DNA of 64,000 nucleotides from Candidatus Woesearchaeota archaeon CG_4_10_14_0_2_um_filter_33_13. Lineage in GTDB: Archaea; Nanobdellota; Nanobdellia; Woesearchaeales; GW2011-AR9. Below are positions 6,212 to 64,000 of this stretch, in pieces. Position 1 is the stretch's first letter, and every line of letters begins with the position of its first letter. The position numbers were made by a program, and so were the translations under genes. The DNA is taken from assembly GCA_002792115.1 (NCBI GenBank), contig PFNQ01000013.1, forward strand, positions 7,236-71,235. Direction: 5' to 3'. The notes under the pieces were generated by a model that made no database searches, had not been told where the DNA came from, and saw nothing but the letters and a program-made list of their open reading frames with translations.

Positions 6212-6244
6212 CTTCTCATAGTAAGAATTCTATTAAATACAATT

Positions 6245-7398: not shown

Positions 7399-8031
7399 TT
7401 AAATTTTCTCTAACTTCAAGATAGTTATTTCTCCCAATAGCCTACATCTTTTAATTGGCAAGTTAATATTAAGAATGGGTATGTGGGTTCTATTGTATAT
7501 TATGTTTATAATTTTAAACTTATCTTTAATCAACATCTTAATGGTGGCAGGGAATATTGGAGTGATATGGCCAGCACCAAGGTCTAAATAATCTTCTTTA
7601 TCAAAAAAATTTGCAAATTTCAGACTGAACAAGTACAATAATCGAGAGTACCAATTGGTAACATTTGGGGTTGTTAGTACAAGTTTTCCTCTTGGCTTTA
7701 AAACTCGATGAACTTCTCTAATGAACTGGTATGGGTTTTCTATGTGTTCAATTATTTCTATTGCAGTGACTAAATCAAAACTATTGTTCTCATATGGTAG
7801 AATGCCTTCATTTAGGTAAACTGAACAACAAGGTACATCTTTCAATTTAAATTTTTTACTAAATAATTCGCATGCTTTCCTTTCAAAATGCTCTTTATTT
7901 AAACTTGATAGAAATGCGCCAGATCCTGCAGCTATATCCAATATCTTCCCTCGCTCACCCTTTAATAATTCCCTAGCCGTTTCATGAACCCCTGGTGCTG
8001 CTCGAACCGGCAATTTAATTCTTTTTTCCAT
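7399..8031 (-). CDS. Class I SAM-dependent methyltransferase
   Basis: GKILDIAAGSGAF motif I; VLKPRGKLVLTTPN post-II region. Confidence 0.65.
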   Translation of the reverse strand: MEKRIKLPVRAAPGVHETARELLKGERGKILDIAAGSGAFLSSLNKEHFERKACELFSKKFKLKDVPCCSVYLNEGILPYENNSFDLVTAIEIIEHIENPYQFIREVHRVLKPRGKLVLTTPNVTNWYSRLLYLFSLKFANFFDKEDYLDLGAGHITPIFPATIKMLIKDKFKIINIIYNRTHIPILNINLPIKRCRLLGEITILKLEKI

Positions 8032-9061
8032 GTGTAATCCCCTTTTTTATTTGAGCATTCTTAATATTCAGTAGATGTTGTAAACAAACATTGTGTTCAC
8101 TATGTGTAGTGTGAACATATTGAGTACACTTTTTAATAAAACTTTCCCTAAATTTAACATTTTTAATTAACTTTAATGCCAGATTTGGAAGTTGAGAATT
8201 TTTTTTCTTAATTATTTCCCATTGGTCATTACAAACAACTGCAGTTCCACATGCCATCGCTTCTAATTCAACTAAACTTAAGACACCTTGCCAGAAGGAA
8301 CCTAGCACTAAGTCCGCAGAACGATACAACTTTGGAAGATCATTGCGTGGAAAGAAATTATGCCAGATGATATCGTCTTTATATGTTTCAAAGAAAGATT
8401 TATAACGGCCATATTGGCTAAACCTTTTTGGGTATTTAACCAAATGTAATTTAGCAGAAGGGCACTTTTCTTTTATTTTTGAAAATATCTTGAACCCGAA
8501 CTCTGGACTTTTGACTTTGTGCAAACGAGTTGGGAATAAGATAATTGGATTACCTTCTAATTGTATCTTTTCACCAGTTGGATTAAATATGTCCGTATTA
8601 ATTGGGTTTGGCAACCATTGCGCATCTTTTCTAATATATTTTAATGTTGGAAGAATACTAGGGATTGCAGCATAAACAATATCGTACTTTTTAACTGAAG
8701 AAATAATTTTATTCTCAACTATTCTATTTAATATTGTTCCAAAAAGATGACTAAAAAATTGACTATGTTTTAAAGAGTTCTTAGAATTAAGTCCAATTGA
8801 GAAACCATGCCAATGTGCAATCCCAACTTGCCTCTGGTTTGGTACCATATTAGTCATGTTTGACCACACATTACAATGTAAAATATCAAATCGAGACAAT
8901 TCGTCTTTTCTCATCTTTTTAAGATGAAGGTAATGGGTTATAAAGTCATAACGCCCACTCTTTGGTTGATAATAATAAAAATCCCATTCTTTCATATGTT
9001 TTTTAAAAGTGTCTAACAAAAAACCCGGACCAAATCCGTTCATAAAATATTTTCCCTTCAT
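8015..9061 (-). CDS. Glycosyltransferase, GT-B (GT4-like)
   Basis: C-terminal GSFWQGVLSLVELEAMACGTAVV resembling GT4 donor-binding EX7E/LEAMA.G.PV motif. Confidence 0.45.
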   Translation of the reverse strand: MKGKYFMNGFGPGFLLDTFKKHMKEWDFYYYQPKSGRYDFITHYLHLKKMRKDELSRFDILHCNVWSNMTNMVPNQRQVGIAHWHGFSIGLNSKNSLKHSQFFSHLFGTILNRIVENKIISSVKKYDIVYAAIPSILPTLKYIRKDAQWLPNPINTDIFNPTGEKIQLEGNPIILFPTRLHKVKSPEFGFKIFSKIKEKCPSAKLHLVKYPKRFSQYGRYKSFFETYKDDIIWHNFFPRNDLPKLYRSADLVLGSFWQGVLSLVELEAMACGTAVVCNDQWEIIKKKNSQLPNLALKLIKNVKFRESFIKKCTQYVHTTHSEHNVCLQHLLNIKNAQIKKGITHGKKN

Positions 9062-9197
9062 TTTTTAACTAATCTTGTAAACAGTTTATTTATTTTTCCA
9101 TATTCATTCTTCCTTTTAGGTATTCTTACTTATGAACTAGTAGTTTATACTCTAAACCACAGATAACCTTTTAAATCAGGAATAGTGGAGGAATTAA

Positions 9198-10358
9198 ATG
9201 ATTAGCATAGCTAAATATTTATCCGGGAAAGGTATAGACGTATCTAAGAAAAGCAGTCTTTCGGATGTTAAACATGTTTTCATCGTTCCCGATAATACCT
9301 ACAGAATAGTTGAAACAGAGTTAGATTTCATTTATAATGATGGTGTGATCAACCTTACTAAGTATTATCGCATATTATTAAAAGAATGGTTTTATGCGCT
9401 TAAAAAGGATGGAAAAATAATAATCAAGTTCATTGAATCAGATTGGTTTTCATCTGATTTTCTCAAAGAAGAAGTAGAACTCTTGTTTGGCGATAGCGTA
9501 TCGGTTATTTTTGAGAGAAAAGAGAATAAGAAAGATGGCGGGAGTTGTTTTTTGGTTCTTAATAAAAATATCTCTGGGCCGTATTATCCAGAAGGAATAA
9601 ATAATTGGTCTTTTGGAATAATTACCAATGGAAAGAAAATGGATGCCTTAGCTAAGATAATTGCATCTATTAGACACCAGAATATTCCTAATTATGAGAT
9701 TATTATTTGTGGAACTTATGGTGGTTTAATAGAAGAAGACACGAAATACATTCACTTTACAGAAAATGACCATCGGGGATGGATAACTAAAAAAAAAAAT
9801 TTGATTTGTGATAAAGCCAAATTTGAAAATTTGTTTGTTCTGCACGATAGGATTGTTCTTAATCCGGGATGGTTTGCAGGAATGAAAAAATACGGAAATA
9901 ACTTTGAAGTACTCTCTTGCAAAATAGATCATAAAACAATTAGGACTTATGATTGGATTACTTCTCGATACCCTTATAAAGATCCAAGAAGCCGACAATA
10001 TTTTGGTGGTTATTTAGAATATTCCGATTGGGACCAGTGGATTTACATTGATGGTGGGGCGATTATCCTAAAAAAAATAGTCTGGGAAAAAGTTAAATGG
10101 GATGAAAACCTATTTTGGAATGAAGCAGAAGATCTTAAGCTTAGTCATGATCAAACAGAGCACGGAATTTTAATTAGGTTCAATCCTTATTCAACGTGTG
10201 AATCATTAACCTGGAGACATCCATCAAGTAAACTTATTTTTAAAAAGAACAAAAAGAAACTTGGAAAACTAAGTGGTCCTTTTCATTATTTAATTGGAAA
10301 AAAGCTGCTTAATTATTCTGTCCTCGTGAAAAACAAGTTTAAAAATGAAAAATTATAA
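9198..10358 (+). CDS. Hypothetical two-domain protein (methyltransferase-like N-term, GT-A-like C-term?)
   Basis: ORF with weak similarity patterns only; embedded in glycosylation island. Confidence 0.3.
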   Translation: MISIAKYLSGKGIDVSKKSSLSDVKHVFIVPDNTYRIVETELDFIYNDGVINLTKYYRILLKEWFYALKKDGKIIIKFIESDWFSSDFLKEEVELLFGDSVSVIFERKENKKDGGSCFLVLNKNISGPYYPEGINNWSFGIITNGKKMDALAKIIASIRHQNIPNYEIIICGTYGGLIEEDTKYIHFTENDHRGWITKKKNLICDKAKFENLFVLHDRIVLNPGWFAGMKKYGNNFEVLSCKIDHKTIRTYDWITSRYPYKDPRSRQYFGGYLEYSDWDQWIYIDGGAIILKKIVWEKVKWDENLFWNEAEDLKLSHDQTEHGILIRFNPYSTCESLTWRHPSSKLIFKKNKKKLGKLSGPFHYLIGKKLLNYSVLVKNKFKNEKL

Positions 10359-11856
10359 TACTGATGTGGTGTTAATTAACCTCAATGGACCATTACATAT
10401 GACTTCTAATTATTTGCATGCTCTATTGAAACGTGAGGGAATTTTAGTTAAAACTATTCACTTTAGAGAATATGAGCCTCGGAGCGAACCTCCTACAAAT
10501 AATGAATTAGAAATACTCTCAAATTTGATTAAAGAGATTAATCCTAAAATAATTAACATTTCTGTAAATTCAATGAATTACTTTGATGCTAAGGATATTA
10601 CTGAAAAAATAAGAGGGGAACTTGGCATCCCTTTTATTTGGGGGGGCCCCCATACCCTTGTAATGCCTGAAGAAAGTATTAAAATCGCAGATTTCATTTG
10701 TCGTGGTGAGGGCGATGTTTATTTCCCAGAACTAATTAAGAAATTTATTGCAGGTGAGGATTGCAGTAAAGTTCCGAACATTTGGATTAAGAGGGGCCTA
10801 GAAGTAATAAAAAACGAATTTGGGCCTCTAGTTAAAGATTTGGACATGCTTCCATTTCCGGATTACTCTGATGTGGATAAATATTATCTGATTGATTCTC
10901 GGATAAGCACAAAGTATGAAATTCCTTCTAGAAAGTATGTTTATCAACTAATGACTTCTCGAGGGTGTCCTTTCAGGTGTAGTTATTGTATGAATTCTCT
11001 TATATTTAACTTATTCCATAACAAATTTCTTCGTAAACGGGGAGTTAATTCAGTAATAGAAGAGTTAGTCCAAGTAAAAAAGATGCATCCAAAATTAAAA
11101 ACAATTTATTTTTGGGATGACGTGTTTGTAATGGATCTTCCTTGGTTAAAAGAATTTGCCAAAGTATATAAAGAAAAGATTAATATCCCATTTTTTTGCT
11201 ATTGCCACCCAATGTTTGTAAAAGATGAAACAATTAAAATTCTTAAATGGATGGGTGTTAAGATGATCTTTATTGGGATTGAGAGTGGTTCTCCGCGGGT
11301 TAGAAGAGAAATTTACGATCGTCACGAAACTAACGACAAAATAATTGAAGCAGCAACAATTATTAACAAACATAAAATTAAGGTTCATTATGACATCATC
11401 ACTTCAAAATTTGACACTCTAAAGGACTTTGACGTTGCATTACATCTGTTACTAAACTTGCCTAAACCGTTTCATATAAATCATAATAATTTGGCATATT
11501 ATCCGGGATTTAAAATTACGAATTTGGCCCTCCAAGAAAAAATAATATCAAAGCAGGAAGTTGCGGGGTATTCAAGAAAGATTAGAACACAATATGCAAC
11601 AAAAAATGAATTTGAGAATAATCCTGAATTGGCATATTATTACCTCATTGGGAGAAAATTCATCCCCAACCAGTTTATTTTTTGGTTGTACTCACATGAA
11701 TCTCATCTCAAACATAAGAGTTTATTTGGCCATATCCCTTCTTTGTTTGAAAGCTTTGATAATAATTTACATGCTCTAAATTTGATGTTTAAGCTGTTGT
11801 CATATGGGGAATTTAAATTTGTATTTTTTGAACTTAAGAAACGATTCTTTAAGTGA
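10345..11856 (+). CDS. B12-binding-domain radical SAM protein (class B rSAM)
   Basis: CPFRCSYCMNS CxxxCxxC cluster after N-terminal B12-binding-like domain. Confidence 0.7.
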   Translation: MKNYNTDVVLINLNGPLHMTSNYLHALLKREGILVKTIHFREYEPRSEPPTNNELEILSNLIKEINPKIINISVNSMNYFDAKDITEKIRGELGIPFIWGGPHTLVMPEESIKIADFICRGEGDVYFPELIKKFIAGEDCSKVPNIWIKRGLEVIKNEFGPLVKDLDMLPFPDYSDVDKYYLIDSRISTKYEIPSRKYVYQLMTSRGCPFRCSYCMNSLIFNLFHNKFLRKRGVNSVIEELVQVKKMHPKLKTIYFWDDVFVMDLPWLKEFAKVYKEKINIPFFCYCHPMFVKDETIKILKWMGVKMIFIGIESGSPRVRREIYDRHETNDKIIEAATIINKHKIKVHYDIITSKFDTLKDFDVALHLLLNLPKPFHINHNNLAYYPGFKITNLALQEKIISKQEVAGYSRKIRTQYATKNEFENNPELAYYYLIGRKFIPNQFIFWLYSHESHLKHKSLFGHIPSLFESFDNNLHALNLMFKLLSYGEFKFVFFELKKRFFK

Positions 11857-11877
11857 GATACTTTAACATCTGTAAAA

Positions 11878-13500
11878 TTGTCAGAGATTCACAAACTTTA
11901 TATAAGCCCAGTTACACAGAATTTGTGGTGTACCCAAGTGATTCCTGATAACAAATATGTATTAGTTTTAAATTTAGGATTGAGGAGTATTAGAGCAATT
12001 GTTTTTGATCATACTGGTAAAAAGTTAACACATAGCTGGCTACCAGTAAGAACTTTTATTAAGGATGAGATGGTTGAACAAGATCCAAATGAGTGGTGGT
12101 CACTTGCCTTACGTGTAATTGACGAAGCTACTACTAGCCAAGAAATAAAAGATAATTTGGAATATATTACTGTTACAAGTTCATCTTGTAATCTGGTTCT
12201 TGTTGATGAAGATAAAAACTCGTTGGGTAATTCTTTAATGGTTTCTGACAAAAGGTCTTTAATACAGGCACAACAACTTTTTGAACATGAACCAATAAAA
12301 TATTTGTTTGATACACATAATATTCTTCCAGTTTCAAGTTTCTTAGCTCCAAAAATTCTTTGGATAAAAGATAAAGATCCAAATCGATTTTATCATACAA
12401 AACATTTTATTAGCTCTGATTCTTACCTTTTGATGAAACTAACTAATGGGATTATTGTTTCTGACCCTCTTAATGCTGAAAAAGCATTTTATTACATGCC
12501 TGAGAATAAATACCCTGCTCCATTATTAGAATATTTAGGTCTAACTGAAAAAAACTTTCCTCAAGTTAAGAATGTTGGAACAATTATTGGTAAAATTTCT
12601 CCTGAACTAAAAACTTTGTTTGCTTTTAACCAAAACGTTAGTGTGGTTCTTACAACTTATGATGCATTAGCTTCATTCTGGGGTTCGGGAGCACTAGAAG
12701 AAGGAGAAGCATGCATTGTTTGTGGAACGTGTTCTTCCATTAGAGTTTACTCTAAAGAAGGGCTAAAACAAAAAACTGCTGGATTATTATCTCAATATTT
12801 TGAAAATAAAAATGCTCATGTTGTTGGTGGATCAAATAATCTTGCAGGCGGTCTTTTAGAATGGGCTAAGGACGCATTTTATCAGGATGTTTATTCAGAT
12901 AATAATGACTATATCTTTGGTTTGATGGAGCAAGAAGCTAACACTAGTACTCTTGGAGCAAAAGGATTAATCTTTCTGCCATATCTTATTGGAGAAAGAA
13001 CCCCCTTCTTTGATTCTGAGGTTAGAGGTATGTTCTTTGGATTAGAAAGATCCCATAATAGAAAAGATATTATCAGATCAATCTACGAAGCCATTGGGTT
13101 TTTATCTTGGGATATTATCACATCTATGGAAAGAGGTGGGGTGTTAGTCAGAAATCTTCGCCTTTCTGGCGGCTTAGGAAAAAATGAGTTAATTTGTCAG
13201 ATTAAGGCTGATATTACTGGGAAAGAAGTTCATCTTTTGGATGAGGTTGAAACAACTGCTCTCGGATGTTTTATGCTTATTGCTTCTGCTTTAGGGGGTA
13301 ATGAAACACAGAAAGTTTTTCCCACAAATCTCTCTATCAGTAAAAGGTTCATTCCTAATTTAGATAACCATATCAAATATCAACAACTCTATCACCTTTT
13401 CAAAAAATTATACAAAGACAATAAAGAAAATTTTAAGTACAGAAATGAATTACTCAAAACAATTAATGAAAAGAGGAAATACGAAGTAAAAAACTTATAG
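11878..13500 (+). CDS. FGGY-family carbohydrate (pentulose/polyol) kinase
   Basis: FGGY N-terminal LVLNLGLRSIRAIVFD and C-terminal GGLGKNELICQIKADITG motifs. Confidence 0.6.
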   Translation: MSEIHKLYISPVTQNLWCTQVIPDNKYVLVLNLGLRSIRAIVFDHTGKKLTHSWLPVRTFIKDEMVEQDPNEWWSLALRVIDEATTSQEIKDNLEYITVTSSSCNLVLVDEDKNSLGNSLMVSDKRSLIQAQQLFEHEPIKYLFDTHNILPVSSFLAPKILWIKDKDPNRFYHTKHFISSDSYLLMKLTNGIIVSDPLNAEKAFYYMPENKYPAPLLEYLGLTEKNFPQVKNVGTIIGKISPELKTLFAFNQNVSVVLTTYDALASFWGSGALEEGEACIVCGTCSSIRVYSKEGLKQKTAGLLSQYFENKNAHVVGGSNNLAGGLLEWAKDAFYQDVYSDNNDYIFGLMEQEANTSTLGAKGLIFLPYLIGERTPFFDSEVRGMFFGLERSHNRKDIIRSIYEAIGFLSWDIITSMERGGVLVRNLRLSGGLGKNELICQIKADITGKEVHLLDEVETTALGCFMLIASALGGNETQKVFPTNLSISKRFIPNLDNHIKYQQLYHLFKKLYKDNKENFKYRNELLKTINEKRKYEVKNL

Positions 13501-13504
13501 AAAA

Positions 13505-14221
13505 ATGAAAGTATTAATCCCCCTCGCAGGACGTGGCTCACGCTTTATTGAAGCAGGTTATACCCTGCCAAAACCATTGGTTCTTATTATTAAAGAACCA
13601 ATGATTCGATGGGCAACTAAAAACCTTAACATTGAGGATAAAGATTTGATTTTTTTCATTCTCAAGATCCATATCGATAATTATCAATTAGATCAGAAAT
13701 TAAGAGAAATATTCTCCGCTAATATCAAAATTGTTGTTGTGGATAAAATTACCGAAGGGGCTCCAATAACTCTTCTTCAGGCAAAAGACATTATCGATAC
13801 CGAAGAAGAACTTTTAATATTTAATGGAGACCAGAACTTCAAAGAAAACATTATAGAAATGATTCGTAATCTTCCATTAAAGTATTCTGGGTTAATACCT
13901 GTGTTTCATTCAACACAAACAAAATTTAGTTACGCTCAAGTTGATAAGGGTATGGATGTTATAGAAGTGGCAGAAAAGATTCCAATTTCTAGTTATGCAA
14001 CTGCAGGAGTTTACTATTTCCGCCATGGAAAAGATTTTGTGTGGGCCACAGAACAAATGATATCTAAAGATATTAGAAGAGGGAATGAATTCTTTGTTTG
14101 TCCAGTATACAATGAATTGCTTGGACGCGGGGACAAAATAAAAGCCACCTTAATTGAAACTTTCTGGCCTTTAGGAACACCAGAAGATGTAGAACACTTT
14201 AAAAGGTATTATCATCCTTGA
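13505..14221 (+). CDS. Sugar-/alditol-phosphate nucleotidyltransferase (LicC/NTP_transferase-like), paralog 1
   Basis: MKVLIPLAGRGSRF...PKPLV N-term; paralog of 15478..16197 (shared ...CPVYNELL..G.KI...WPLGTPEDV...). Confidence 0.6.
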   Translation: MKVLIPLAGRGSRFIEAGYTLPKPLVLIIKEPMIRWATKNLNIEDKDLIFFILKIHIDNYQLDQKLREIFSANIKIVVVDKITEGAPITLLQAKDIIDTEEELLIFNGDQNFKENIIEMIRNLPLKYSGLIPVFHSTQTKFSYAQVDKGMDVIEVAEKIPISSYATAGVYYFRHGKDFVWATEQMISKDIRRGNEFFVCPVYNELLGRGDKIKATLIETFWPLGTPEDVEHFKRYYHP

Positions 14222-15047
14222 TGTGTTTATATAATTGTTTTAATTTATTGGGATAGTCAGTACAGATTCCATCAACATTCAATCTAATGAGGCGTTCCCA
14301 TACTTCTTCAAATCCTTCTTTTGATAGTGGGTGCTTAGGAATAGTATCTTTATGCAGTTCTGGTGAGATTGCGTAGACTAATTTGCCGTCATTATGGCAT
14401 TTATCAATAAACTCTTTGTTATATAATCCATGAACCCATTCATCTGCCCAGACAATTTCCCAACAATTCTCTTTAATGGCCTCTTGGTAGTTGTAGATTG
14501 TTGGATATCTTTTGTCCGGAAAGAGTATATTCTCTCCAATCGATAAAGATAGTTTAAGCTTAGGTTGGAGTTTTTGAAACTTTTTAGCAGAACTAATCAA
14601 AATGTCAAACACAAAAACACGTTTATAAATGTTAAAATCTGGAAAATCTTTTTCAAACTGGTCTAGTTCCTTAACTATCAATATTTCAATATCCTTTTCG
14701 GAACAATCTTTAACTTGAATTGCCAATTCAACCACAGGTAAGGATTTTGCTCTAAACAATTCTAATGTTTCTCTCAAGGAAGGAATTTTTCCAGTGTTAT
14801 TTACTCCAGTTGCTTTTATATAATTAATGCCAATTTTCTGAAGAGAATCAAAATTTATGTTAGTTATTTCTTTATCAATACTTGCTAGGCGTTTAAGATT
14901 AGAATCATGGATGACCACTAGTTTGCCATCTTTGGTACGGTGGATGTCAATCTCTAGACCAAACCCTTGTTCTAGGGCGTGTGTAAAAGATAAAATCGTA
15001 TTCTCTGGATAATTAAGCATTAATCCGCGATGAGCAAAAATTTTCAT
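14199..15047 (-). CDS. Glycerophosphodiester phosphodiesterase (GDPD family)
   Basis: FAHRG...ENT...E.D.H.TKDGKLVVIHD catalytic motif. Confidence 0.8.
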   Translation of the reverse strand: MKIFAHRGLMLNYPENTILSFTHALEQGFGLEIDIHRTKDGKLVVIHDSNLKRLASIDKEITNINFDSLQKIGINYIKATGVNNTGKIPSLRETLELFRAKSLPVVELAIQVKDCSEKDIEILIVKELDQFEKDFPDFNIYKRVFVFDILISSAKKFQKLQPKLKLSLSIGENILFPDKRYPTIYNYQEAIKENCWEIVWADEWVHGLYNKEFIDKCHNDGKLVYAISPELHKDTIPKHPLSKEGFEEVWERLIRLNVDGICTDYPNKLKQLYKHIKDDNTF

Positions 15048-38774: not shown

Positions 38775-41700
38775 TTAACGTCTTTTTCTTTTTAAGGAAA
38801 CAATCAGGCCCATCAACACAGCAATAAATACTAATGCTACCATTATTGTTAATAATGATGTGTATGCAGTAGTATCCCTAAAAGAAGCTATTGTTTTCTG
38901 GCTTTGCACCTTCCTTACATCTAACTCATTTTGCAACTGCAAAGCTAACTGATCTTTGTTAACATATTGGTTAACCGCTTGTGTGGTTGAACTTTGTGCG
39001 TAACAATCTGTTAACTCTAATGTTACATCAGTACTATCTTCCAATATGTCATTATCCCTGTAAACCTTTACTGTAAGTGGATATGATCCCGCTTTAGCAT
39101 CTTCCAAATTAAGATTGAACGTGGCTTTGTAATCGTTGTCGCCACTGGAGTACTTTTCCAAGTCTATAGCAGTTTTACTCAAACTTAAGTCTAAAGCAGA
39201 GTTTTCTACAACAATCTTAACATCATCTTCATTACTCTTTCCAATATTCTCAACCATTACTTGCATAGTGGTTTGTCTTAAACATTGTAAAGTGCTAGAG
39301 GACAAGGAAGCAGAGTTGATGATAACTTGGTGTGTCTCTAAATCTACATCTACAGTTTTAATTTCTGTTGTAGTATGTGTAGACCCATCATCTGCTTCTC
39401 CTTCTATAGTTAGTTCTAATGTGTAAGTATCTTCATCAATGGTTTCTCCTTTAAGGTCAAAATCAACTGTAAAGGTTTCACTGTCTCCATCTCTAATATC
39501 ATTTTCATCAGATTCTTCTTCAAGGTCTTCTCCGTCAACATCTAGAATCTTAACCATCACAAACACATTATTAATGTCTTCACTATACTCATTGTTAACT
39601 TTAATTTCTATCTCATTTAGGTCTTGCAATGAAAGTTTTCCAGAGGATTTGCCATTAATCTTGATGTTATCAACTGTTAAGTAACTTTTTGGACTTAAGT
39701 AAATATCTTGCTCACTTGAATCCTCGTTGCTAGTAACATTTATTCTTCCAATCTGATGTTGTCCAGAATCTTCTCCTTCAGGAACGTAAAAGTTAAAGGT
39801 TAAGGAAAATTGTTGTCCTGCACTCAAACTTACTGGAACGCTTCCAGAAAAATTTGCTTTGTACTTGCTATTAATATCAAGTAGTTCTACTGATAATCCT
39901 GTTAATGATTGGTAAGTTCCAGTATTCTTAATAGTAACTTGAACACTTCCACTTTTTCCTTTATCAACGTTGCTTATAACGATCGGCGATATATCTATTG
40001 TAGCAGGTTGGTCTTCTACAACAAGATATGTAGAAAAACCTGTTACTGTAAAGATTATTTGTCCATTACTGTTATTGGTTATAACACAAATGGATTCTGG
40101 ACAAGTACTAAATTCGCTAGCATCATTATCAAACCCTTCTGCACGAAGAATCCTCGGGTTAGTAAATGATTTTTTTATAGTAATTGTTGCTGGAACATTT
40201 AATTCTGGTGCAGCATTATCACTAGTGTCGACTGAAACTTTATTAACATTAACCACAATAACTTCATCTATATTCAAGATTCCCGTCAAATCTAGATTGC
40301 CGTCAAAAACAATCTTTGCAAAGTTATTCTCAATTGTGAACTCATCTACACTTGCAGGATCTCTTATCTTACCATCAAAACTACCATTCCAATAACCTTC
40401 TGGAATTAATCCAGATTCTGAAACCGGTTCATCAGTGACGATATAAGTCCAAACTTGGGTATACTCTCCATTTATTTCCGCGTAAACCTCAAATTCACCA
40501 ACTTGATCAAATGGCAAGGGGTAATTTACTCCTTGGTAAACAGCTTCATCATTTACATACCACATTACTCTTTGATCAAAACCATCCTCTGCTAAAGTGA
40601 CACTTAATTCATCATCTGGTTGTCCTAACCCTATAATCCAGGTGTCTTCTTCTGGAGCATATGATAATAAACAATTATTTCTTTTTACTGTTGTTGACAA
40701 CACATTACTATATGTGGAATCGTCTCTGTACAACCCTTTAACATAAATAGTGTTATCTCCTTCACTTAAATCTTCAGTTTTTATCCATATTTTTATTAGT
40801 GCAGCAGTTGCTGAATCTATGGCTGGAACTTCTTTAACAATCTCTAAATCTCCTGATTGAATCAGCAATTTAAGATCGTCCTCTGTGTTTTTGCCAAGAT
40901 TGGTATACTCAATATTTAACCAAGCCCCTCCCCGACAAGTTAATTCTGATTGTCCTAAAGTTACGGCATTAATGATAATATCTGCGGCATCTTTGCTAAC
41001 TTCTAAATTAAAATTAAATAAATCCTTTCTCAGAATGGATGGATTTTGATAATCCTTACCAGTTATGATCAAATCAACGTTAAACACCTGCTCTACTGCT
41101 ACTAATGGTACATCAAAATCGATTGAAATAGTTTTTGTTTCTCCTGGATTTAAATTTGTGTTAAATTCATTTTCAACAACTGCACCATTTACATCCAATT
41201 TGTAAGCCAGTCCAGTTAACTTATAATTTAGGTGATTATTAACTTCAACACTAAGAGTTACATGGTCCAGTGGTTTTAACTCTTGGGCTAAATCTCCTGA
41301 ATTGACAGTTTCTCCATTTACTTTAAGAGATTTGATCTCCAGTGCGGGGGTAACAGATATATTAACTGTTTTTTGTACAACACCACCATAACTATCATCA
41401 ACAGAGATGGTGCAGCTTGCGTCCTTTTTCCAGTTTACACCTAACTTTAATTGTAATTGTTCATTTGTAATAACCTTACACAAAACTCCGCCCTTTTGGG
41501 AAATTTTTGTATAAATCAAATCGTCTCCGTCAGCATCAGAGAATAAGTCAGTAAGTTCTAGGATTATTAATTCATTATTTACTTCTGCTAAGTTCTGGGA
41601 TAGAATTGATCCAACAGGTTTTCTATTATTTGCAGAATTTTTTGTCGCTTCATTAGATATAATCCATTCTATATTGCCGTCATGGATACGAGAAATAAGT

Positions 41701-42119
41701 TCGTCTGTTAATAGAGTATCTGTGTGTGTTGCAATGGCTGCATGAGTGTAATCTCCGTAAGTAAGGGCGTCAATGAAACCAGACGGAGAATTCTTAAGAA
41801 CAATTTTGTCCCCAGAATCAGTTAGTTTATTATTTAATTCTAAAATTAGGTGACTATGTCCATTAATTTTTCCAGTAATGACGGTATCTCCTAAGTTGGT
41901 TCTAATAAATCCAGTACCTAAGGCATCATAATCAACAGAATCTACTCCGGTATTGTATAACTCGATCCATTCATTTCCTGTGCTTGGGTCAACCATTATT
42001 TCGTTAATGACCACGTCAGTATCCATACCTAATGCTGCTTTGGTTGTTAATATCAAAGCAACAATTACAAAAAGAATTGTTAGAATTTTAGTTTGTTTCA
42101 TTTTGTTTTTATACCTCAA
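38775..42119 (-). CDS. Large secreted surface (S-layer-like) protein with N-terminal lamin-tail domain and C-terminal TM anchor
   Basis: Signal peptide; LTD signature VVINEIMVDPSTGNEWIELYNTG; many N-x-S/T sequons; C-term hydrophobic helix + KRKRR. Confidence 0.6.
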   Translation of the reverse strand: MRYKNKMKQTKILTILFVIVALILTTKAALGMDTDVVINEIMVDPSTGNEWIELYNTGVDSVDYDALGTGFIRTNLGDTVITGKINGHSHLILELNNKLTDSGDKIVLKNSPSGFIDALTYGDYTHAAIATHTDTLLTDELISRIHDGNIEWIISNEATKNSANNRKPVGSILSQNLAEVNNELIILELTDLFSDADGDDLIYTKISQKGGVLCKVITNEQLQLKLGVNWKKDASCTISVDDSYGGVVQKTVNISVTPALEIKSLKVNGETVNSGDLAQELKPLDHVTLSVEVNNHLNYKLTGLAYKLDVNGAVVENEFNTNLNPGETKTISIDFDVPLVAVEQVFNVDLIITGKDYQNPSILRKDLFNFNLEVSKDAADIIINAVTLGQSELTCRGGAWLNIEYTNLGKNTEDDLKLLIQSGDLEIVKEVPAIDSATAALIKIWIKTEDLSEGDNTIYVKGLYRDDSTYSNVLSTTVKRNNCLLSYAPEEDTWIIGLGQPDDELSVTLAEDGFDQRVMWYVNDEAVYQGVNYPLPFDQVGEFEVYAEINGEYTQVWTYIVTDEPVSESGLIPEGYWNGSFDGKIRDPASVDEFTIENNFAKIVFDGNLDLTGILNIDEVIVVNVNKVSVDTSDNAAPELNVPATITIKKSFTNPRILRAEGFDNDASEFSTCPESICVITNNSNGQIIFTVTGFSTYLVVEDQPATIDISPIVISNVDKGKSGSVQVTIKNTGTYQSLTGLSVELLDINSKYKANFSGSVPVSLSAGQQFSLTFNFYVPEGEDSGQHQIGRINVTSNEDSSEQDIYLSPKSYLTVDNIKINGKSSGKLSLQDLNEIEIKVNNEYSEDINNVFVMVKILDVDGEDLEEESDENDIRDGDSETFTVDFDLKGETIDEDTYTLELTIEGEADDGSTHTTTEIKTVDVDLETHQVIINSASLSSSTLQCLRQTTMQVMVENIGKSNEDDVKIVVENSALDLSLSKTAIDLEKYSSGDNDYKATFNLNLEDAKAGSYPLTVKVYRDNDILEDSTDVTLELTDCYAQSSTTQAVNQYVNKDQLALQLQNELDVRKVQSQKTIASFRDTTAYTSLLTIMVALVFIAVLMGLIVSLKRKRR

Positions 42120-42202: not shown

Positions 42203-43585
42203 TTATTTGAGTAACACCACCAAAAAGACAATAATCAATGCTACTACTAAAATAATTGCAATGATTATTGCTCCCACAAGGAAATCATTTGCGGAGTAAG
42301 AGTGTTCTGTGGTGGAAACAACAGTAGTTGAAGACGTTGGTTGATTACTCGTTGGGGTGTTTGTGTTACTTGCAGTAGTTTGATTCAACACTGTAACGAT
42401 AACTTCAGAGTCATCTGCAGTAGTTGGTGTGGTGGGGTTTATTGTTACTTGACATTTTCCAACATTTAAAGAAACTCTTTCATAATCAGCATTTTCATCT
42501 AAGTCAATGTAAGCGTTTATATCAAAATCGTATTTCCCCTCTTTAACTCCCACTAACGGAATGGTAACTGTTTTCTTCCAAGTGTTAACTTTATCACTAA
42601 ACTCGTTAATGACCAAGTTCTTAATGTTTTCATTAATTTTTAAAGCTTGGTTGTAAATAGCAACAGCAGCAGCTTTTTGATCATCAGTGCCATAGTTTGT
42701 TACTTCTACAGTTAAGAAAACTTCTTCATCACAAGTTGTAACTGTTTCAGGTTGAAATTCAGCTTTGACTATTCTTAAATCGTCTCTAACTCGATCGACT
42801 TCAATAGTTAAAGTCTTTTCAATCTTGTATTCTACATTTTTTTCATCTATTGCAACCAAAGTAATGTCTAATTCATACTTCCCTTCATCAACATCTTCAT
42901 CAGGTGTGAAAGAGATTTCAAATGAATCATCTGTATCTGCGTCTAAAGCATCTAAATCCCAAGAATCATCAATGTCCTGGCTCAGGTCATCATTATCATC
43001 AATAGTTAAAGTAATATCATCAAACGTTCCATATTTATATTTGTCATTAAATGAATTTGCGTATTTAAATGTGAATGTAATTTCTTCCCCAGCAAGAACT
43101 GTTTGATCTAAGTCCCAAGAACTTTCTTCATCATTACCATCAAACTTATCTGTTTCACTTCCATCTTCACTTTTGTAATCTACTTCTAATCTATCAAAGT
43201 CTAGCATCATGGCAGTGTTTTGTTCTAAACTAGCACTATCTGTATTGGCAGCATTACCTTTTTCTTCAACTTTTAAAGTCCCGATATTTTCAGTTCCTGC
43301 GTCTTTATCATGAGGAACCTTTATGGTATAAGAAACAGCCTGGGTGGAGTTGGCCGCAATAACAACTTCTTTTGTGTCTGCAACATATTTTGTGCTAGGT
43401 AAACCACTTGCTGAAACTACAATCGTTAAATTGCTTGCATCCGGATTGTTGACAGTAAAACTTGCTTGTCCTAAAACATAATCTTTATAATCACCATCAT
43501 CAAAATCCTGATAATCCACACTTAGATTAACTTTGTCTTCAACAATGTTCAAAGCAGAAACAACATTAACAACTAGTAAAAGCAT
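42203..43585 (-). CDS. Secreted acidic surface protein with Thr/Ser-rich stalk and C-terminal TM anchor
   Basis: N-terminal hydrophobic signal, Asp-rich repeats, TTPTTADDS...TSNQPTSSTTVVSTT linker then AIIIAIILVVALIIVFLVVLLK. Confidence 0.5.
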   Translation of the reverse strand: MLLLVVNVVSALNIVEDKVNLSVDYQDFDDGDYKDYVLGQASFTVNNPDASNLTIVVSASGLPSTKYVADTKEVVIAANSTQAVSYTIKVPHDKDAGTENIGTLKVEEKGNAANTDSASLEQNTAMMLDFDRLEVDYKSEDGSETDKFDGNDEESSWDLDQTVLAGEEITFTFKYANSFNDKYKYGTFDDITLTIDDNDDLSQDIDDSWDLDALDADTDDSFEISFTPDEDVDEGKYELDITLVAIDEKNVEYKIEKTLTIEVDRVRDDLRIVKAEFQPETVTTCDEEVFLTVEVTNYGTDDQKAAAVAIYNQALKINENIKNLVINEFSDKVNTWKKTVTIPLVGVKEGKYDFDINAYIDLDENADYERVSLNVGKCQVTINPTTPTTADDSEVIVTVLNQTTASNTNTPTSNQPTSSTTVVSTTEHSYSANDFLVGAIIIAIILVVALIIVFLVVLLK

Positions 43586-52452: not shown

Positions 52453-52716
52453 ATGAAAAAAGTAATTGGTGTGATGTTTGTCTTATTAACTTTTTTAATA
52501 GTTGGTTGTTCTAGTGTTGATGAAGAATTAGTTTGTACTAAAGATGTTGATTGTGTCCCTAATCAATGTTGTCATGCTGACGGGGCATTAAATAAAGAGT
52601 TTGGACCAAATTGTTTAGGGCAACTTTGTACAATGGAATGCGTTCCCGGAACGATTGACTGTGGCCAAGGTGAGATTAAATGTTTAAATGAGCAGTGCCA
52701 AGTTGTGTTTAAATAA
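52453..52716 (+). CDS. Small secreted Cys-rich (lipo)protein
   Basis: Signal peptide ending LIVGC (lipobox-like) and 13 Cys in ~65 aa mature region. Confidence 0.45.
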   Translation: MKKVIGVMFVLLTFLIVGCSSVDEELVCTKDVDCVPNQCCHADGALNKEFGPNCLGQLCTMECVPGTIDCGQGEIKCLNEQCQVVFK

Positions 52717-56815: not shown

Positions 56816-56954
56816 ATGCAATCCTACATTTTTTTAATTAAAACTCACACTTCTCAATTTAGCAAACTTAATGTATTTATTTGTTTTTTTAAGACGACAT
56901 TCTTCAAGTTAAGGTAACACAAGCTTTATAAATAAATATAATATACTTTAATCA

Positions 56955-58955
56955 ATGCCAAAAAAGAGGTTGGGATGTGGTTTATTTAGTTTTCTTCCTA
57001 TTAGCTCAGGCTCTGGGCGAAGCTCTAAAAGAGGGCAAATCACTGTTTTTATTATTCTGGGCATTTTAATGTTGTTGGCATTGGTTTTAGTTATCGCTTT
57101 AAAATCAGAAATTTTTGCTTTTAAAACGGATGAAATCGCTCCTACAGAAAAAGGCAAAGTTGAAAATTATATTGTTGCGTGTATGGATAGACTTGGAGAA
57201 GAAGCTTTATTTAAAATTGGTCTTCAAAGCGGATACATTGAAGTACCTACCCAAATTGCTAAAGATAATCAACAAAGTTTGAGACTTTCTCCTATGAATG
57301 TAGTTCCCTATTGGGCGGTTGGGCCAAATATCTTTGTTCCCTCATTACAAGAGATAAAAGAACGGATTGATCTTTACATGGAAGAAAATATGCGCGATTG
57401 TCTTTTCTCTACTCAAGCTTTTACAGAACAATACGACCTAATCGAGAAAAGTGAAATTACTGCAGATACAAATATTGCTGAGAATCAAGTTATCTTTAAT
57501 ATTCATTGGGACATTGAAGTTAATAATAAAGCAGGAGAAGTTGTTAGTGAAGTTATCAACCATATTACTGAGTCTCCTGTGAAATTAAAGAAAGTTTATA
57601 CTATGGCAGTAAAGATTCTTGAGAATGAGATGCAATCATTAAAGGTGGAAGATATTACTCAAGACCTTATTGCTTTAGAACATCCTAAAGTGCCGGTAGC
57701 TGGAATTGAATTAAGATGTAGTAAAAAAACATGGGATGTTAAAGAAGCGGAGAGTACTTTGCTAAAGATGTTACGTATCAACATCCGAGAATTAAAAATT
57801 AAAGGGACCGATTTTTTAGAGTTTCCTGAAGAATTACCTTACTATGATAATCATTATGTTTGGGACATTGGAGAAGATATTTCTGAAAGAAAAGTTAGTG
57901 TAATGTTTAACTTTGATGAGACTTATCCACATGTTTTTGCAGTTACTCCTTTATCCGGCACAAAAATGGCTAGTTCTCAATTAGGTGGTACTGATCAAAT
58001 TTCTTTCTTATGTATTCAAACGTGGAAATTTACTTACGATTTGGTTTACCCGGTACTGGTAAGAGTGAGGGATGAAACAACCAATTATGAATTTAATATG
58101 GCCTTTACAGTTCATTTAATTCAGAACACTCCTAACAAAGGCGATCCTGTCGCTAGAGCTTCGTTGCAATTTCCTACAATAAATGCTGATGGGTATTGTA
58201 CTTCTGCTAATGTTCCAATGAGTATAAAAACTTATGAACTAGTAGAAAATGGTGAGGGAGTAAGTTATAACGAAGATTTGGGAGATGTTAACCTCAGCTT
58301 TACTTGTTTAAGATACAAATGTGACTTGGGCCAAAGTAAATACGACTACGCAGGTTTGGGTTTCTCTGGAATAAGTTTGAATGTGCCGTATTGTGTTGGA
58401 GGAATTTTAAGGGGAACTAAACCAGGATATAAAGAATCTTGGCAGAGAGTAGTTACAACGGCCGGCAAGGAAGCCGAGTTAAGCTTGACTCCAGTTATTA
58501 ATATTCCTCTCAATAAAATTAAGGTGGTTAAACATGATTTTACTGAAGTTAATGGAGTTAAAAATATTGGTCCTGCTCAAGAAGGTGCAGTTGAGGAGAC
58601 TACATTAATCAAACTTAAGTTTATTAAATCAAATCTTACCGAAACAAATTTAGAACATGAGGCTACTGTTGCAGTATCAAAACAGATGGACAAAAAAATA
58701 TTTGAAGAAGAGAAATTAGAATTGTTGGCTAAAGCCGATTTTACCTATTATTTGGAAGTGATGGTTTTCAGAGAAGAAGAGTTTATTGGAGGATATAAAG
58801 GTGAAGTAACCTTACCTTGGAGCCAATTAAAAGATGCTAGTCAATTAATCTTCCACATTTTATCCAGTAAAACAACTAATGAGGAAGAAATGTTTGCATT
58901 TATGACAAACATTGAAGAGCTGAGCAAAGAAATACCTGCTTTAGAAATAAAATAA
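56955..58955 (+). CDS. Membrane-anchored (signal-anchor) 666-aa protein of unknown function
   Basis: Basic N-term then TM (ITVFIILGILMLLALVLVIAL), large extracytoplasmic domain; TATA-like 25 nt upstream; 31 bp before giant ORF. Confidence 0.5.
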   Translation: MPKKRLGCGLFSFLPISSGSGRSSKRGQITVFIILGILMLLALVLVIALKSEIFAFKTDEIAPTEKGKVENYIVACMDRLGEEALFKIGLQSGYIEVPTQIAKDNQQSLRLSPMNVVPYWAVGPNIFVPSLQEIKERIDLYMEENMRDCLFSTQAFTEQYDLIEKSEITADTNIAENQVIFNIHWDIEVNNKAGEVVSEVINHITESPVKLKKVYTMAVKILENEMQSLKVEDITQDLIALEHPKVPVAGIELRCSKKTWDVKEAESTLLKMLRINIRELKIKGTDFLEFPEELPYYDNHYVWDIGEDISERKVSVMFNFDETYPHVFAVTPLSGTKMASSQLGGTDQISFLCIQTWKFTYDLVYPVLVRVRDETTNYEFNMAFTVHLIQNTPNKGDPVARASLQFPTINADGYCTSANVPMSIKTYELVENGEGVSYNEDLGDVNLSFTCLRYKCDLGQSKYDYAGLGFSGISLNVPYCVGGILRGTKPGYKESWQRVVTTAGKEAELSLTPVINIPLNKIKVVKHDFTEVNGVKNIGPAQEGAVEETTLIKLKFIKSNLTETNLEHEATVAVSKQMDKKIFEEEKLELLAKADFTYYLEVMVFREEEFIGGYKGEVTLPWSQLKDASQLIFHILSSKTTNEEEMFAFMTNIEELSKEIPALEIK

Positions 58956-58986
58956 TTTCAGTTTAAGAAATGATGTATCATTAAAC

Positions 58987-64000: not shown

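What the first reader, a model, noticed from the sequence alone, without database searches (positions are those of the whole stretch)
56955..64000. Two-gene module: signal-anchored 666-aa protein plus giant Cys-rich membrane/surface protein missing from the ORF track
A continuous frame-1 ORF runs from 58987 to the window end (>1,670 aa). It begins only 31 bp after a 666-aa TM-anchored protein with no recognisable domain, so the two are probably co-transcribed.

Features seen directly in the translation:
- An N-terminal FN3-like domain.
- Internal hydrophobic helices.
- A Cys-rich region (CSGTPDCVSGNSGQCINNKC, GCDCIH, a GGGGG run).

In a small-genome, probably host-associated archaeon, such giant surface proteins are prime candidates for host attachment or a fusogen/adhesin role. 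This is the most likely undescribed system in the window.
Basis: seen in the sequence. Interest (0 to 1): 0.8.

Follow-up and report, generated by a model that had tools for sequence, protein, structure and literature searches.

The report
Pilin-linked giant protein, wall-hydrolase operon
The two genes are real and belong to a larger operon, conserved across many Woesearchaeota-type (DPANN) archaea: two pilin-like proteins, a 2,118-residue disulfide-rich secreted protein of unknown fold, and a swappable set of enzymes that often cut bacterial cell walls, which suggests an apparatus for attaching to or feeding on bacteria.

Summary
The giant frame continues past the window and is 2,118 aa in full. 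Independent groundwater assemblies show no indels.

It is not a two-gene module. In 80 related loci the order is A (666-aa type) – B (giant) – C (~190 aa). A is present in 71/71 loci with room, and C in 67/69.

- **A and C:** both have strongly conserved class III (type IV pilin-like) N-termini. The genome encodes a prepilin peptidase, a pilus ATPase and platform proteins.
- **B:** it has a Sec signal peptide, FN3/Ig-like domains and a ~1,400-aa core with about 36 invariant cysteines. No transmembrane anchor was found, and no sequence or fold match to anything known.
- **Fourth gene:** a variable secreted enzyme cassette. In 14 of 30 sampled loci it carries recognised murein-cleaving domains (SLT, amidase, M23, M15, lysozyme-like). 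Here it is an SGNH esterase + GH23-like + metallophosphoesterase protein.
- **Own wall:** no murein polymerisation genes were found in this genome.
- **Range:** the family is confined to Nanobdellota, in about 309 of 788 genera.

Best reading (about 50%): a pilin-anchored surface complex that binds and locally opens bacterial cell walls. A fusogen role is not supported. The core is undescribed; murein hydrolases in these archaea are already known.

The parts
56829..56835 (+). T7 run 14 nt after the stop of the upstream PAC2 gene. It is a likely archaeal oligo-T terminator that separates PAC2 from the operon.
   Evidence: Read directly from the sequence. The terminator role is inferred from general knowledge of archaeal oligo-T termination.
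56925..56932 (+). TATA-like box TTTATAAA centred about 26-27 nt upstream of the ATG of gene A. This fits a leaderless archaeal transcript.
   Evidence: Read directly from the sequence. This is inference only, because AT-rich spacers contain many such strings.
56955..58955 (+). Gene A (P0001, 666 aa): a large pilin-like protein.
   Evidence: ORF. No Pfam or NCBIfam match. More than 120 homologous clusters at 48-68% identity. Model mean pLDDT 82.
56955..57104 (+). A residues 1-50: basic leader ending K-R-G, then Q-I-T-V-F-I-I-L-G and a hydrophobic helix (class III signal-like).
   Evidence: In 63 homologues the motif is K-[GA]-Q-[VI]-T-x-F-I-I-x-G, with Q+1, T+3, I+6, I+7 and G+9 in 63/63. Only 14 of 1,507 ORFs in the genome have such an N-terminus.
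57147..58154 (+). A residues 65-400: alpha/beta globular region with no clear structural match. It is shared with a paralog on contig C15.
58203..58952 (+). A residues 417-666: three beta-sandwich domains. The first is transthyretin/CnaB-like.
58987..64000 (+). Gene B (P0003), first 1,671 of 2,118 codons: a giant secreted Cys-rich protein. It continues to window-equivalent 65343 (L002:8579).
   Evidence: Independent assemblies show no indels.
58987..59079 (+). B residues 1-31: Sec-type signal peptide, with basic residues, a hydrophobic core and I-S-A before L-E.
   Evidence: Hydrophobic segment 13-31. The pattern ...NLP-[IV]-[IV]-SAL-E-I-S is conserved in homologues. The cleavage site is inferred.
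59086..59334 (+). B residues 34-116: FN3-like domain (purple acid phosphatase N-terminal type).
   Evidence: PF16656 25.6 bits (cut-off 30) and fn3 15.4 bits. PF16656 is precomputed on most homologues.
59464..59766 (+). B residues about 160-260: acidic, Asn/Ser/Thr-rich variable linker. Some homologues carry a transglutaminase-core insert here.
   Evidence: Column conservation 0.04-0.18. Coverage dips. PF01841 is recorded on 5 homologues, and P0135 has about 200 extra residues at this point.
59779..60546 (+). B residues 265-520: Ig-like beta-sandwich domains. This is where the conserved core begins.
   Evidence: Weak Glucodextran_B hit. PF09136, PF17936 and PF19077 occur on many homologues. 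Covered by 105-120 of 120 homologues.
60547..64000 (+). B residues 521-1671 (core runs to about 1905): conserved disulfide-rich core. It contains a cadherin-like beta-sandwich (525-692), a 63-residue helix (701-763), a helical bundle (about 1209-1336) with a low-confidence Gly-rich loop (1248-1293), and then beta-rich domains.
62188..62247 (+). It is a lineage-variable insertion, not part of the conserved framework.
   Evidence: These Cys are conserved in only 23-27% of 56 homologues.

Best explanation
The finding is the front end of an operon whose core is three genes, conserved across Woesearchaeota-type Nanobdellota.

**Components**
- A: a 666-aa protein with a class III (type IV pilin-like) N-terminus and a bulky globular plus beta-sandwich body.
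- B: a 2,118-aa Sec-exported protein stapled by about 18 or more conserved disulfides.
- C: a ~190-aa small pilin-like protein.
- D: a variable cassette of secreted enzymes that follows the core. Here it is P0005 (SGNH esterase + GH23-like lysozyme domain + metallophosphoesterase), then a small anchored protein, then a DUF218 protein.

**Proposed mechanism.** Shown steps are marked S and inferred steps I.
1. A and C carry prepilin-type signals (S: motif conservation).
2. They are cut by the genome's A24 prepilin peptidase and handled by its type IV filament ATPase and platform (S: the genes are present; I: that they act on A and C).
3. B is exported by Sec, folds outside the cell into a rigid disulfide-rich body, and is held at the surface or at a filament tip by A and C. 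This is the way bacterial minor pilins hold the large non-pilin PilY1 (I).
4. The complex engages a chemically conserved ligand on another cell, most likely bacterial murein (I).
5. The co-encoded secreted enzymes de-esterify and cut the wall locally, for attachment, access or feeding (S: the domains are present in about half of cassettes; I: the activity and the coupling).

In this genome B also ends in a bacterial SH3 domain, a type commonly used for wall binding.
For: **Module.** The order A-B-C is on one strand in 80 related loci. A is present in 71/71 and C in 67/69 loci with room. A lies within 5 kb of B in 105/195, 33/54, 30/33 and 12/15 carriers by likeness band, against 6/300 at random. 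In this genome the B-C and C-D spacers are 1 nt, and D-E and E-F overlap.

**Pilin-like signals.**
- A motif: K-[GA]-Q-[VI]-T-x-F-I-I-x-G, invariant at five positions in 63/63.
- C: a 5-residue leader (M-N-K-K-G type), a hydrophobic helix, frequent Glu at +5 and a conserved T-S-A.
- Only 14 of 1,507 ORFs in the genome look like this, and two of them are in this operon.

**Machinery.** Peptidase_A24 is on C28, and a T2SSE ATPase plus two T2SSF platform domains are on C20. A24 is present in 67/71 module carriers in the order.

**B is extracellular and rigid.** It has a signal peptide and no transmembrane anchor. About 36 Cys are invariant.

**Murein link.**
- Fourth-gene Pfam tallies in 58 loci: SLT 14, DUF2272 10, M23 4, Amidase_2 3, M15_4 3, Hydrolase_2 3, Phage_lysozyme2 3, Polysacc_deac_1 2, Glucosaminidase 2.
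- In a systematic half-sample, 14/30 carry a murein-cleaving domain at E <= 1e-3. Nine of these score above the Pfam cut-off. Only 3/30 have no cassette.
- SLT lies within 10 kb of B in 27/300 carriers against 3 at random.
- The middle domain of P0005 hits only goose-type GH23 lysozymes, over the catalytic-Glu motif, and that Glu is invariant (weak, E about 0.1).
- SH3_3 at B residues 2060-2107 scores 27.8-29.2 bits against a cut-off of 27.

**Not autolysins.** No PBP transpeptidase, no FtsW/RodA, and a single Mur-ligase domain in a 92%-complete genome.

**Literature.** Large extracellular murein transglycosylases and a predicted bacterial association have been proposed for these lineages (PMC8204110, PMC9723730, PMC12352652).
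Against: - There is no expression or protein evidence of any kind.
- The B core has no recognisable binding or catalytic fold, so its role is inferred only from its neighbours.
- Only about half of the cassettes have a recognised murein-cleaving domain. Others carry only GDSL/DUF218, FGE-sulfatase or DUF2272 domains, whose substrates are unknown.
- SLT linkage is low in distant carriers: 12/195 and 3/54.
- SH3_3 occurs in only 1 of 20 B tails examined, and most B proteins end a few residues after the core.
- No Pfam or NCBIfam pilin model matches A or C.
- Peptidase_A24 is near-universal in the order (116/121). Its presence therefore does not discriminate.
- The high sequence conservation, the single copy and the stable housekeeping synteny (PAC2, GatD, enolase, RelA) would also suit a cell-intrinsic structural role.
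- Disulfide formation in an anoxic groundwater archaeon needs an oxidising system, which I did not look for.
Confidence: 0.5

Rival explanations
1. Non-contact scavenging or secretion apparatus. A and C form a short pseudopilus or a bindosome-like surface assembly. That assembly exports or displays B and the enzymes so the cell can harvest amino sugars and peptides from free murein fragments and dead bacteria, without attaching to living hosts.
For: The same pilin-like signals and machinery apply. The cassettes mix esterases, deacetylases, phosphoesterases and nucleases (Exo_endo_phos), as a general necromass-degrading set would. One paper proposes that related archaea use peptidoglycan from dead bacteria (PMC11537232).
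Against: It does not explain why a 2,118-aa rigid protein with an invariant cysteine framework is the most conserved element. The enzymes carry their own signal peptides and would not need a pseudopilus in a cell without an outer membrane.
Confidence: 0.2
2. Cell-intrinsic envelope component. B, with A and C as membrane anchors, is a structural part of the archaeon's own surface (an S-layer-associated scaffold or cell-shape element). The neighbouring enzymes are functionally unrelated passengers in a conserved syntenic block.
For: Unusually high conservation for a host-interaction protein: 38-68% identity over 1,200 aa. It is single-copy in nearly all carriers. It is embedded between housekeeping genes in conserved order. 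The disulfide-rich rigid architecture also fits.
Against: It was found in only 71/121 sampled families of the order, 61/99 among high-quality genomes, so it is not a universal envelope part. The enzyme cassette follows C with a 1-nt spacer here and is present in 27/30 sampled loci despite changing content. The invariant pilin-type motif goes beyond what an anchor needs. The window holds better S-layer candidates: 1,114-aa and 460-aa proteins with C-terminal anchors and a CARDB domain.
Confidence: 0.15
3. One reading: B is a membrane fusogen (fusexin/HAP2-like), or a teneurin/Rhs-type toxin shell, acting on the host membrane.
For: It has a long central helix, a helical bundle and a low-confidence Gly-rich loop. 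It is a large extracellular protein in a probable symbiont.
Against: No C-terminal or internal transmembrane anchor. No RHS/YD or fusion-protein family was detected by Pfam. No class II fusion, HAP2 or teneurin shell appears among the best Foldseek or VIA matches; the only teneurin match is a generic transthyretin-like domain in A.
Confidence: 0.03
4. A mobile-element or virus-derived module, for example tail fibre, baseplate and lysin genes of an integrated archaeal virus.
Against: No PHROG family matches A, B or C. No viral fold match. The chromosomal position next to PAC2/GatD is the same across distant genomes. There is no composition shift. No integrase or capsid genes were seen nearby.
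Confidence: 0.02

Closest known systems
PilY1/PilC with minor pilins at the tip of bacterial type IVa pili (own knowledge of the fimU-pilVWXY1E operon)
   Same: A very large Sec-exported non-pilin protein is encoded inside a cluster of pilin-like genes. It is thought to be presented by those pilins for adhesion.
   Different: No sequence or fold similarity: no PilY1 beta-propeller or Neisseria_PilC family hit. There are only two pilin-like genes. B is twice as large and disulfide-rich. The organism is an archaeon, and an enzyme cassette is attached.
Modular type IV pilins with grafted adhesive modules, e.g. Streptococcus sanguinis PilB/PilC (own knowledge)
   Same: A combines a pilin-type N-terminal signal and helix with a bulky C-terminal body of more than 600 residues. 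Such a body would fit only at a filament tip.
   Different: The body of A is a new alpha/beta domain plus three beta-sandwiches. No homology was detected, and cleavage and assembly are untested.
Sulfolobus bindosome: class III-signal substrate-binding proteins assembled at the surface (background in PMC6098224, PMC13705601)
   Same: It is an archaeal use of prepilin-type signals on non-filament surface proteins involved in nutrient capture.
   Different: Bindosome proteins are ABC-type solute-binding proteins. A and C match no such family, and the partner here is a giant protein plus hydrolases.
[quoted passage not shown]
   Same: The lineage, the extracellular location and the proposed target (bacterial cell walls) are all the same. 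The cassette gene in many related loci carries the same SLT/GH23 domain.
   Different: Those reports concern the enzyme itself. The invariant A-B-C core next to it, the pilin-like signals and the variable nature of the cassette are not described in the papers I could search. B has no SLT domain.
Type IV pilus-dependent prey invasion with wall hydrolases in Bdellovibrio-like predators (title and abstract of PMC5430801)
   Same: The functional analogy is pilins plus murein-modifying enzymes used together against a bacterial envelope.
   Different: That is a bacterial predator with dispersed genes, and there is no counterpart of B. The analogy is functional only.

Membership tests
Type IV pilin / archaeal class III signal peptide proteins (for A and C) | Short basic leader ending in Gly/Ala, followed directly by a ~20-residue hydrophobic helix | tested here: met
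   A: K-[GA] then Q-[VI]-T-x-F-I-I-x-G in 63 of 70 by a strict pattern, and the other 7 differ only at position -1/-2. C: M-N-K-K-G type leader of about 5 residues followed by a hydrophobic helix.
Type IV pilin / archaeal class III signal peptide proteins (for A and C) | Glu at +5 of the mature protein (bacterial-type pilins; not required in archaeal pilins) | tested here: inconclusive
   C: Glu at +5 in 27/72 by a strict pattern. Many others visibly have Glu or Gln at that place, and a few have Gly. A: Phe at +5 in 60/63.
Type IV pilin / archaeal class III signal peptide proteins (for A and C) | Match to a curated pilin or class III signal model | tested here: not met
   No Pfam or NCBIfam family at E <= 0.1 for P0001 or P0004. 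I therefore call them pilin-like, not members.
Type IV pilin / archaeal class III signal peptide proteins (for A and C) | Cognate prepilin peptidase and assembly ATPase/platform in the genome | tested here: met
   Peptidase_A24 (55 bits), T2SSE (118 bits) and two T2SSF domains (64 and 54 bits). A24 is present in 67/71 carriers but also in 49/50 non-carriers.
Type IV pilin / archaeal class III signal peptide proteins (for A and C) | Actual cleavage after the Gly/Ala and incorporation into a filament | not testable with these tools
   Needs N-terminal proteomics or an in vitro peptidase assay, plus imaging.
Murein (peptidoglycan) hydrolases (for the fourth gene) | Recognised catalytic domain (GH23/SLT, amidase, M23, M15, lysozyme-like) | tested here: inconclusive
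   For this window's P0005: the Pfam SLT model does not match, and Glucosaminidase gives E 0.064. A 5-sequence profile hits only goose-type GH23 lysozymes at E 0.09-0.14, across the catalytic-Glu motif. For related loci the feature is met in 14/30 sampled.
Bacterial SH3 (SH3b) wall-binding domain (B C-terminus) | Pfam SH3_3 match above the gathering score | tested here: met
   27.8 bits on the whole protein and 29.2 bits on the tail alone, against a cut-off of 27. This is marginal, and the domain is present in 1 of 20 tails. Binding to murein was not tested.
Fusexin / HAP2 class II fusogens | C-terminal transmembrane anchor | tested here: not met
   No hydrophobic segment after residue 746, and the C-terminus is a Ser/Thr-rich linker plus SH3.
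Fusexin / HAP2 class II fusogens | Three-domain class II beta fold | tested here: inconclusive
   It is not among the best 50 Foldseek (PDB, viral) or VIA-wide matches for residues 521-1720. Residues 1-520 and 1721-2118 were not folded.
Teneurin / Rhs YD-shell proteins | RHS/YD repeats | tested here: not met
S-layer protein of the lineage | Present in essentially all members of the lineage that share the envelope type | tested here: not met
   The core was found in 71/121 genomes of the order, 61/99 among high-quality genomes. This is a single-query sample: 'not found in those searched', not proven absent.
Phage tail / baseplate proteins | Match to a phage protein family or viral fold | tested here: not met
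   No PHROG family at E <= 0.01 for A, B or C. No BFVD match at E <= 1e-3.

The most novel reading that the evidence does not exclude
The A-B-C core is a new kind of archaeal surface organelle, confined to Nanobdellota. In this reading, a disulfide-stapled giant protein of novel fold is mounted on pilin-like subunits and physically engages and breaches the bacterial sacculus, with interchangeable enzyme 'warheads' encoded behind it. It would be the first dedicated apparatus by which archaea parasitise or prey on bacteria. The second module in the same genome (an A paralog plus a 1,141-aa Cys-rich helical protein on contig C15) would be a sister system with another target.
Probability: 0.3. Interest if true: 0.85.

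Novelty: new variant of a known kind. Interest (0 to 1): 0.68.

Why it matters
**Open question.** Woesearchaeota and relatives are among the most widespread uncultured archaea. Who their hosts are, and in particular whether they associate with bacteria rather than archaea, is unresolved. It has so far been argued only from scattered murein hydrolase genes.

**What this locus adds.** It ties those enzymes to an invariant three-gene core found in about 40% of Nanobdellota genera, with two pilin-like proteins and a giant protein of unknown fold. That gives concrete, testable handles:
- bind-and-cut assays on bacterial sacculi;
- antibodies or tags for imaging contact sites in enrichments;
- a genomic marker for predicting which lineages target bacteria.

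**Annotation.** It also defines three sizeable protein families (612 representatives at 50% clustering for B alone) that are currently annotated only as hypothetical or 'FN3 domain-containing' proteins.

Tried and rejected
- **Complex prediction of A (28-666) with C (28-223):** no verdict, score 0.00. This is not evidence either way.
- **Expression:** no RNA holder is listed for the stretch. All holders are groundwater or aquifer DNA metagenomes.
- **Sequence searches with no usable result:**
  - Pfam and NCBIfam for A and C.
  - PDB profile searches for the A and B families, best E 1.7-1.9.
  - phmmer of P0005 against PDB.
  - PHROGs.
  - ESM Atlas: A returns only its own unnamed Nanobdellota clusters, and the B core gives no usable named hit.
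- **Is the 1,141-aa neighbour of the A paralog on C15 a relative of B?**
  - BLAST gives E 0.004 over 58 residues with four Cys aligned.
  - The B-core HMM does not find it.
  - hhalign gives probability 9.5%, E 0.0034 over 64 columns.
  - Left as an unproven lead.
- **Prepilin peptidase co-occurrence as a test of the pilin idea:** not discriminating, because A24 is in 116/121 genomes.
- **Bacterial-type promoter/terminator scan:** not above shuffled expectation, and not suited to archaea.
- **Rfam:** no RNA family in the window.
- **B C-terminal tails as a guide to the target:** 19 of 73 B proteins have tails of 90 aa or more. Most tails are an unnamed ~100-aa Cys module. SH3_3 occurs only here, and one tail is lectin-like.
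Full report
**1. The observation**

ORFs at 56955-58955 (666 aa, A/P0001) and 58987-window end (1,671 aa, open) are as described, 31 bp apart. The window is contig C19:7236-71235 of a 1.33-Mb, 92%-complete genome in 57 contigs.

Fetching the rest of the contig (L002; L002 position + 56764 = window coordinate) closes the giant frame at 2,118 aa (B/P0003, L002:2223-8579).

Contigs from an independent groundwater sample cover 57582-59628 and 59690-63968 with three substitutions each and no indels. Seven of ten variants across samples are synonymous. The frame is real and under purifying selection.

Upstream genes (TFB, GatD, PAC2) show the organism is an archaeon.

**2. It is an operon, not a pair**

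Four more genes follow B on the same strand:

| Gene | L002 coordinates | Description | Junction |
|---|---|---|---|
| C (P0004) | true start at the ATG at 8581, to 9186 | ~200 aa, small pilin-like | 1 nt after B |
| D (P0005) | 9188-11827 | 879 aa enzyme | 1 nt after C |
| E (P0006) | 11820-12443 | 207 aa | overlaps D |
| F (P0007) | 12433 to contig end | DUF218 | overlaps E |

Ahead of A there is a T7 run after the PAC2 stop, and a TATA-like TTTATAAA about 26 nt before the ATG. This suggests a separate, leaderless transcript (inference).

**3. Conservation and range**

- A has more than 120 homologous clusters at 48-68% identity. The B core (521-1720) has more than 120 at 38-68%. All named ones are Woesearchaeota or Nanoarchaeota.
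- A profile of the B core finds 612 representatives at 50% clustering.
- Across one genome per genus, the B core occurs in about 309 of 788 Nanobdellota genera and essentially nowhere else.
- Within the order it occurs in 71 of 121 sampled families, nearly always once per genome and inside a 1,000-2,500-aa frame.
- In 80 related loci my gene calls give the order A-B-C, with A in 71/71 and C in 67/69 loci that have room.
- A lies within 5 kb of B in 105/195, 33/54, 30/33 and 12/15 carriers by likeness band, against 6/300 at random.

**4. Anatomy of A and C**

A:
- It has no curated family.
- Its N-terminus is a basic leader ending K-R-G, followed by Q-I-T-V-F-I-I-L-G and a hydrophobic helix. 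Across homologues, Q+1, T+3, I+6, I+7 and G+9 are kept in 63/63. That is far more than a membrane anchor requires, and it fits the archaeal class III signal pattern.

C:
- It has a five-residue leader of the M-N-K-K-G type, a hydrophobic helix with frequent Glu at +5, and a conserved T-S-A. This is the classical type IV pilin signature.

Genome context:
- Only 14 of 1,507 ORFs in the genome have such N-termini.
- The genome encodes Peptidase_A24, a T2SSE ATPase and two T2SSF platform domains.
- A24 is in 116/121 genomes of the order. The necessary condition is therefore met, but it does not discriminate.

**5. Anatomy of B**

- Sec-type signal peptide (1-31).
- FN3-like domain (34-116, sub-threshold here but recorded on most homologues).
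- A variable acidic linker (about 160-260). Some homologues carry a transglutaminase-core domain here.
- Ig-like domains (265-520).
- A conserved core to about residue 1905.

All 56 Cys lie in residues 522-2114, and about 36 are invariant in 56 homologues.

The model of 521-1720 (pLDDT 75) contains a cadherin-like sandwich, a 63-residue helix, a helical bundle with a low-confidence Gly-rich loop, and beta-rich domains.

Nothing known matches it:
- PDB by profile;
- Foldseek PDB and viral libraries;
- ESM Atlas;
- PHROGs.

The only internal hydrophobic stretch is marginal, and there is no C-terminal anchor. B is best read as a secreted, disulfide-stapled protein.

Its tail is variable. Most homologues end just after the core. 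This one has a Cys-containing module plus a marginal bacterial SH3 domain, which is unique among the 20 tails examined.

**6. The clue to function: the fourth gene**

Pfam tallies over 58 loci:

| Domain | Loci |
|---|---|
| SLT | 14 |
| GDSL | 14 |
| FGE-sulfatase | 13 |
| DUF2272 | 10 |
| Metallophos | 6 |
| Peptidase_M23 | 4 |
| DUF218 | 4 |
| Peptidase_M15_4 | 3 |
| Amidase_2 | 3 |
| Phage_lysozyme2 | 3 |
| Hydrolase_2 | 3 |
| Polysacc_deac_1 | 2 |
| Glucosaminidase | 2 |

Per-protein architectures for a half-sample of 30 loci:
- 14 have a murein-cleaving domain at E <= 1e-3, and 9 of these are above the Pfam cut-off.
- 1 has only a polysaccharide deacetylase.
- 5 have only DUF2272, with or without FGE.
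- 4 have only GDSL, DUF218 or phosphatase domains.
- 1 has only FGE.
- 2 have no family.
- 3 loci have no cassette; the next gene there is enolase or an unrelated gene.

SLT lies within 10 kb of B in 27/300 carriers against 3 at random. By band the counts are 12/195, 3/54, 9/33 and 3/15.

In this genome D is SGNH-like + a middle domain + Metallophos. A small profile of the middle domain hits only goose-type GH23 lysozymes over the catalytic-Glu motif. The hits are weak (E about 0.1), and that Glu is invariant.

The genome shows no PBP, no FtsW/RodA and a single Mur-ligase domain. The enzymes are therefore unlikely to remodel a wall of its own.

**7. Interpretation**

The best-supported reading is a surface complex in which pilin-like A and C hold Sec-exported B, working together with secreted wall-active enzymes against bacterial murein. 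The closest functional analogue is the minor-pilin/PilY1 tip complex. There is no homology to it.

The high conservation of B fits a chemically invariant ligand such as murein. It equally fits a cell-intrinsic structural role, which remains the main conceptual rival together with non-contact scavenging. Fusogen and viral-origin readings have no support.

Murein transglycosylases in these archaea, and the idea that they target bacteria, are already published (PMC8204110, PMC9723730, PMC12352652). The invariant A-B-C core, its pilin-like signals and the cassette-like variability are not described in the papers I could search.

**8. A second module**

The A-family HMM finds a 774-aa paralog on contig C15 (E = 3e-34) with the same type of N-terminus. 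It sits directly upstream of a 1,141-aa Sec-signal protein with Ig-like domains and a Cys-rich helical C-terminus.

Similarity of that protein to B is only suggestive. The repeated architecture, a large pilin-like protein followed by a big secreted Cys-rich protein, is nonetheless notable.

**9. Limits**

- There are no expression data.
- The complex prediction gave no verdict.
- Only part of B was folded, and as one large model.
- Cassette annotation rests on Pfam.
- Gene calls in related loci are my own simple ORF calls.

Noticed in passing
L011 (G000:C15) 8717-11041 and 11069-14494, + strand: This is a second, paralogous module in the same genome. A 774-aa protein with the same K-K-G-Q-V-T-V-F-I-I type N-terminus (A-family HMM E = 3e-34) sits directly upstream of a 1,141-aa Sec-signal protein. 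That protein has Ig-like domains and a Cys-rich helical C-terminal region with 13 invariant Cys in 38 homologues, all Woesearchaeota/Nanoarchaeota.
   Followed up: partly
L092 (G000:C37) 907-9141, + strand: A 2,744-aa protein with a pilin-like N-terminus (K-R-G-V-V-A-L...) and 11 NosD/right-handed beta-helix repeats. It is another giant surface protein that apparently uses a class III-type signal.
   Followed up: partly
L093 (G000:C57) 4052-7195, + strand: A 1,047-aa protein whose N-terminus (...K-A-Q-I-T-I-F-M-I-V-G...) matches the A-family HMM only over the signal/helix part (E = 3e-5). It has no Pfam family. This suggests that several large proteins in this genome share the Q-x-T-x-F-x-I-x-G signal.
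   Followed up: partly
window 38775-42119 (-) and 42203-43585 (-): Two adjacent surface proteins (1,114 and 460 aa) with signal peptides and C-terminal transmembrane anchors. The larger one has Lamin-tail, Big_9 and CARDB domains, plus an unexpected match to the Nup98-96 autopeptidase S59 domain (31.5 bits, cut-off 28.4). They are better S-layer or envelope candidates than B.
   Followed up: partly
L002 11820-12443 (window-equivalent 68584-69207): E (P0006, 207 aa) has a signal peptide, two D-x-D-G-D type acidic loops about 35 residues apart (EF-hand/dockerin-like by eye) and a C-terminal anchor. It has no Pfam match. The assembly has a short run of N inside this gene. A counterpart exists in only a few related loci.
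   Followed up: no
window 52453-52716 (+): An 87-aa protein with a lipoprotein-like signal (...L-I-V-G-C-S-S) and about 10 Cys. A gene of the same size follows GatD in distant relatives (L003, L004), so it is conserved in position.
   Followed up: no
L012, L015, L018 and about 30 other loci: Many public MAG records that carry this Nanobdellota-restricted module are titled 'uncultured Methanosarcinales archaeon'. Given the census, those organism labels are probably wrong.
   Followed up: no
order-level sample; G000:C20:36014-38501 and C28:35268-35618: Peptidase_A24 is present in 116 of 121 genomes of this DPANN order, and this genome has an ATPase plus platform locus. That is at odds with statements in some papers that type IV filament systems are largely missing from DPANN.
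   Followed up: partly
homologues P0135, P0141, P0142, P0150, P0151: Some B homologues carry a transglutaminase-core (PF01841) domain inserted where this protein has its acidic linker. This fold class includes proteases and pseudomurein endoisopeptidases, and it could be a built-in enzymatic head.
   Followed up: no
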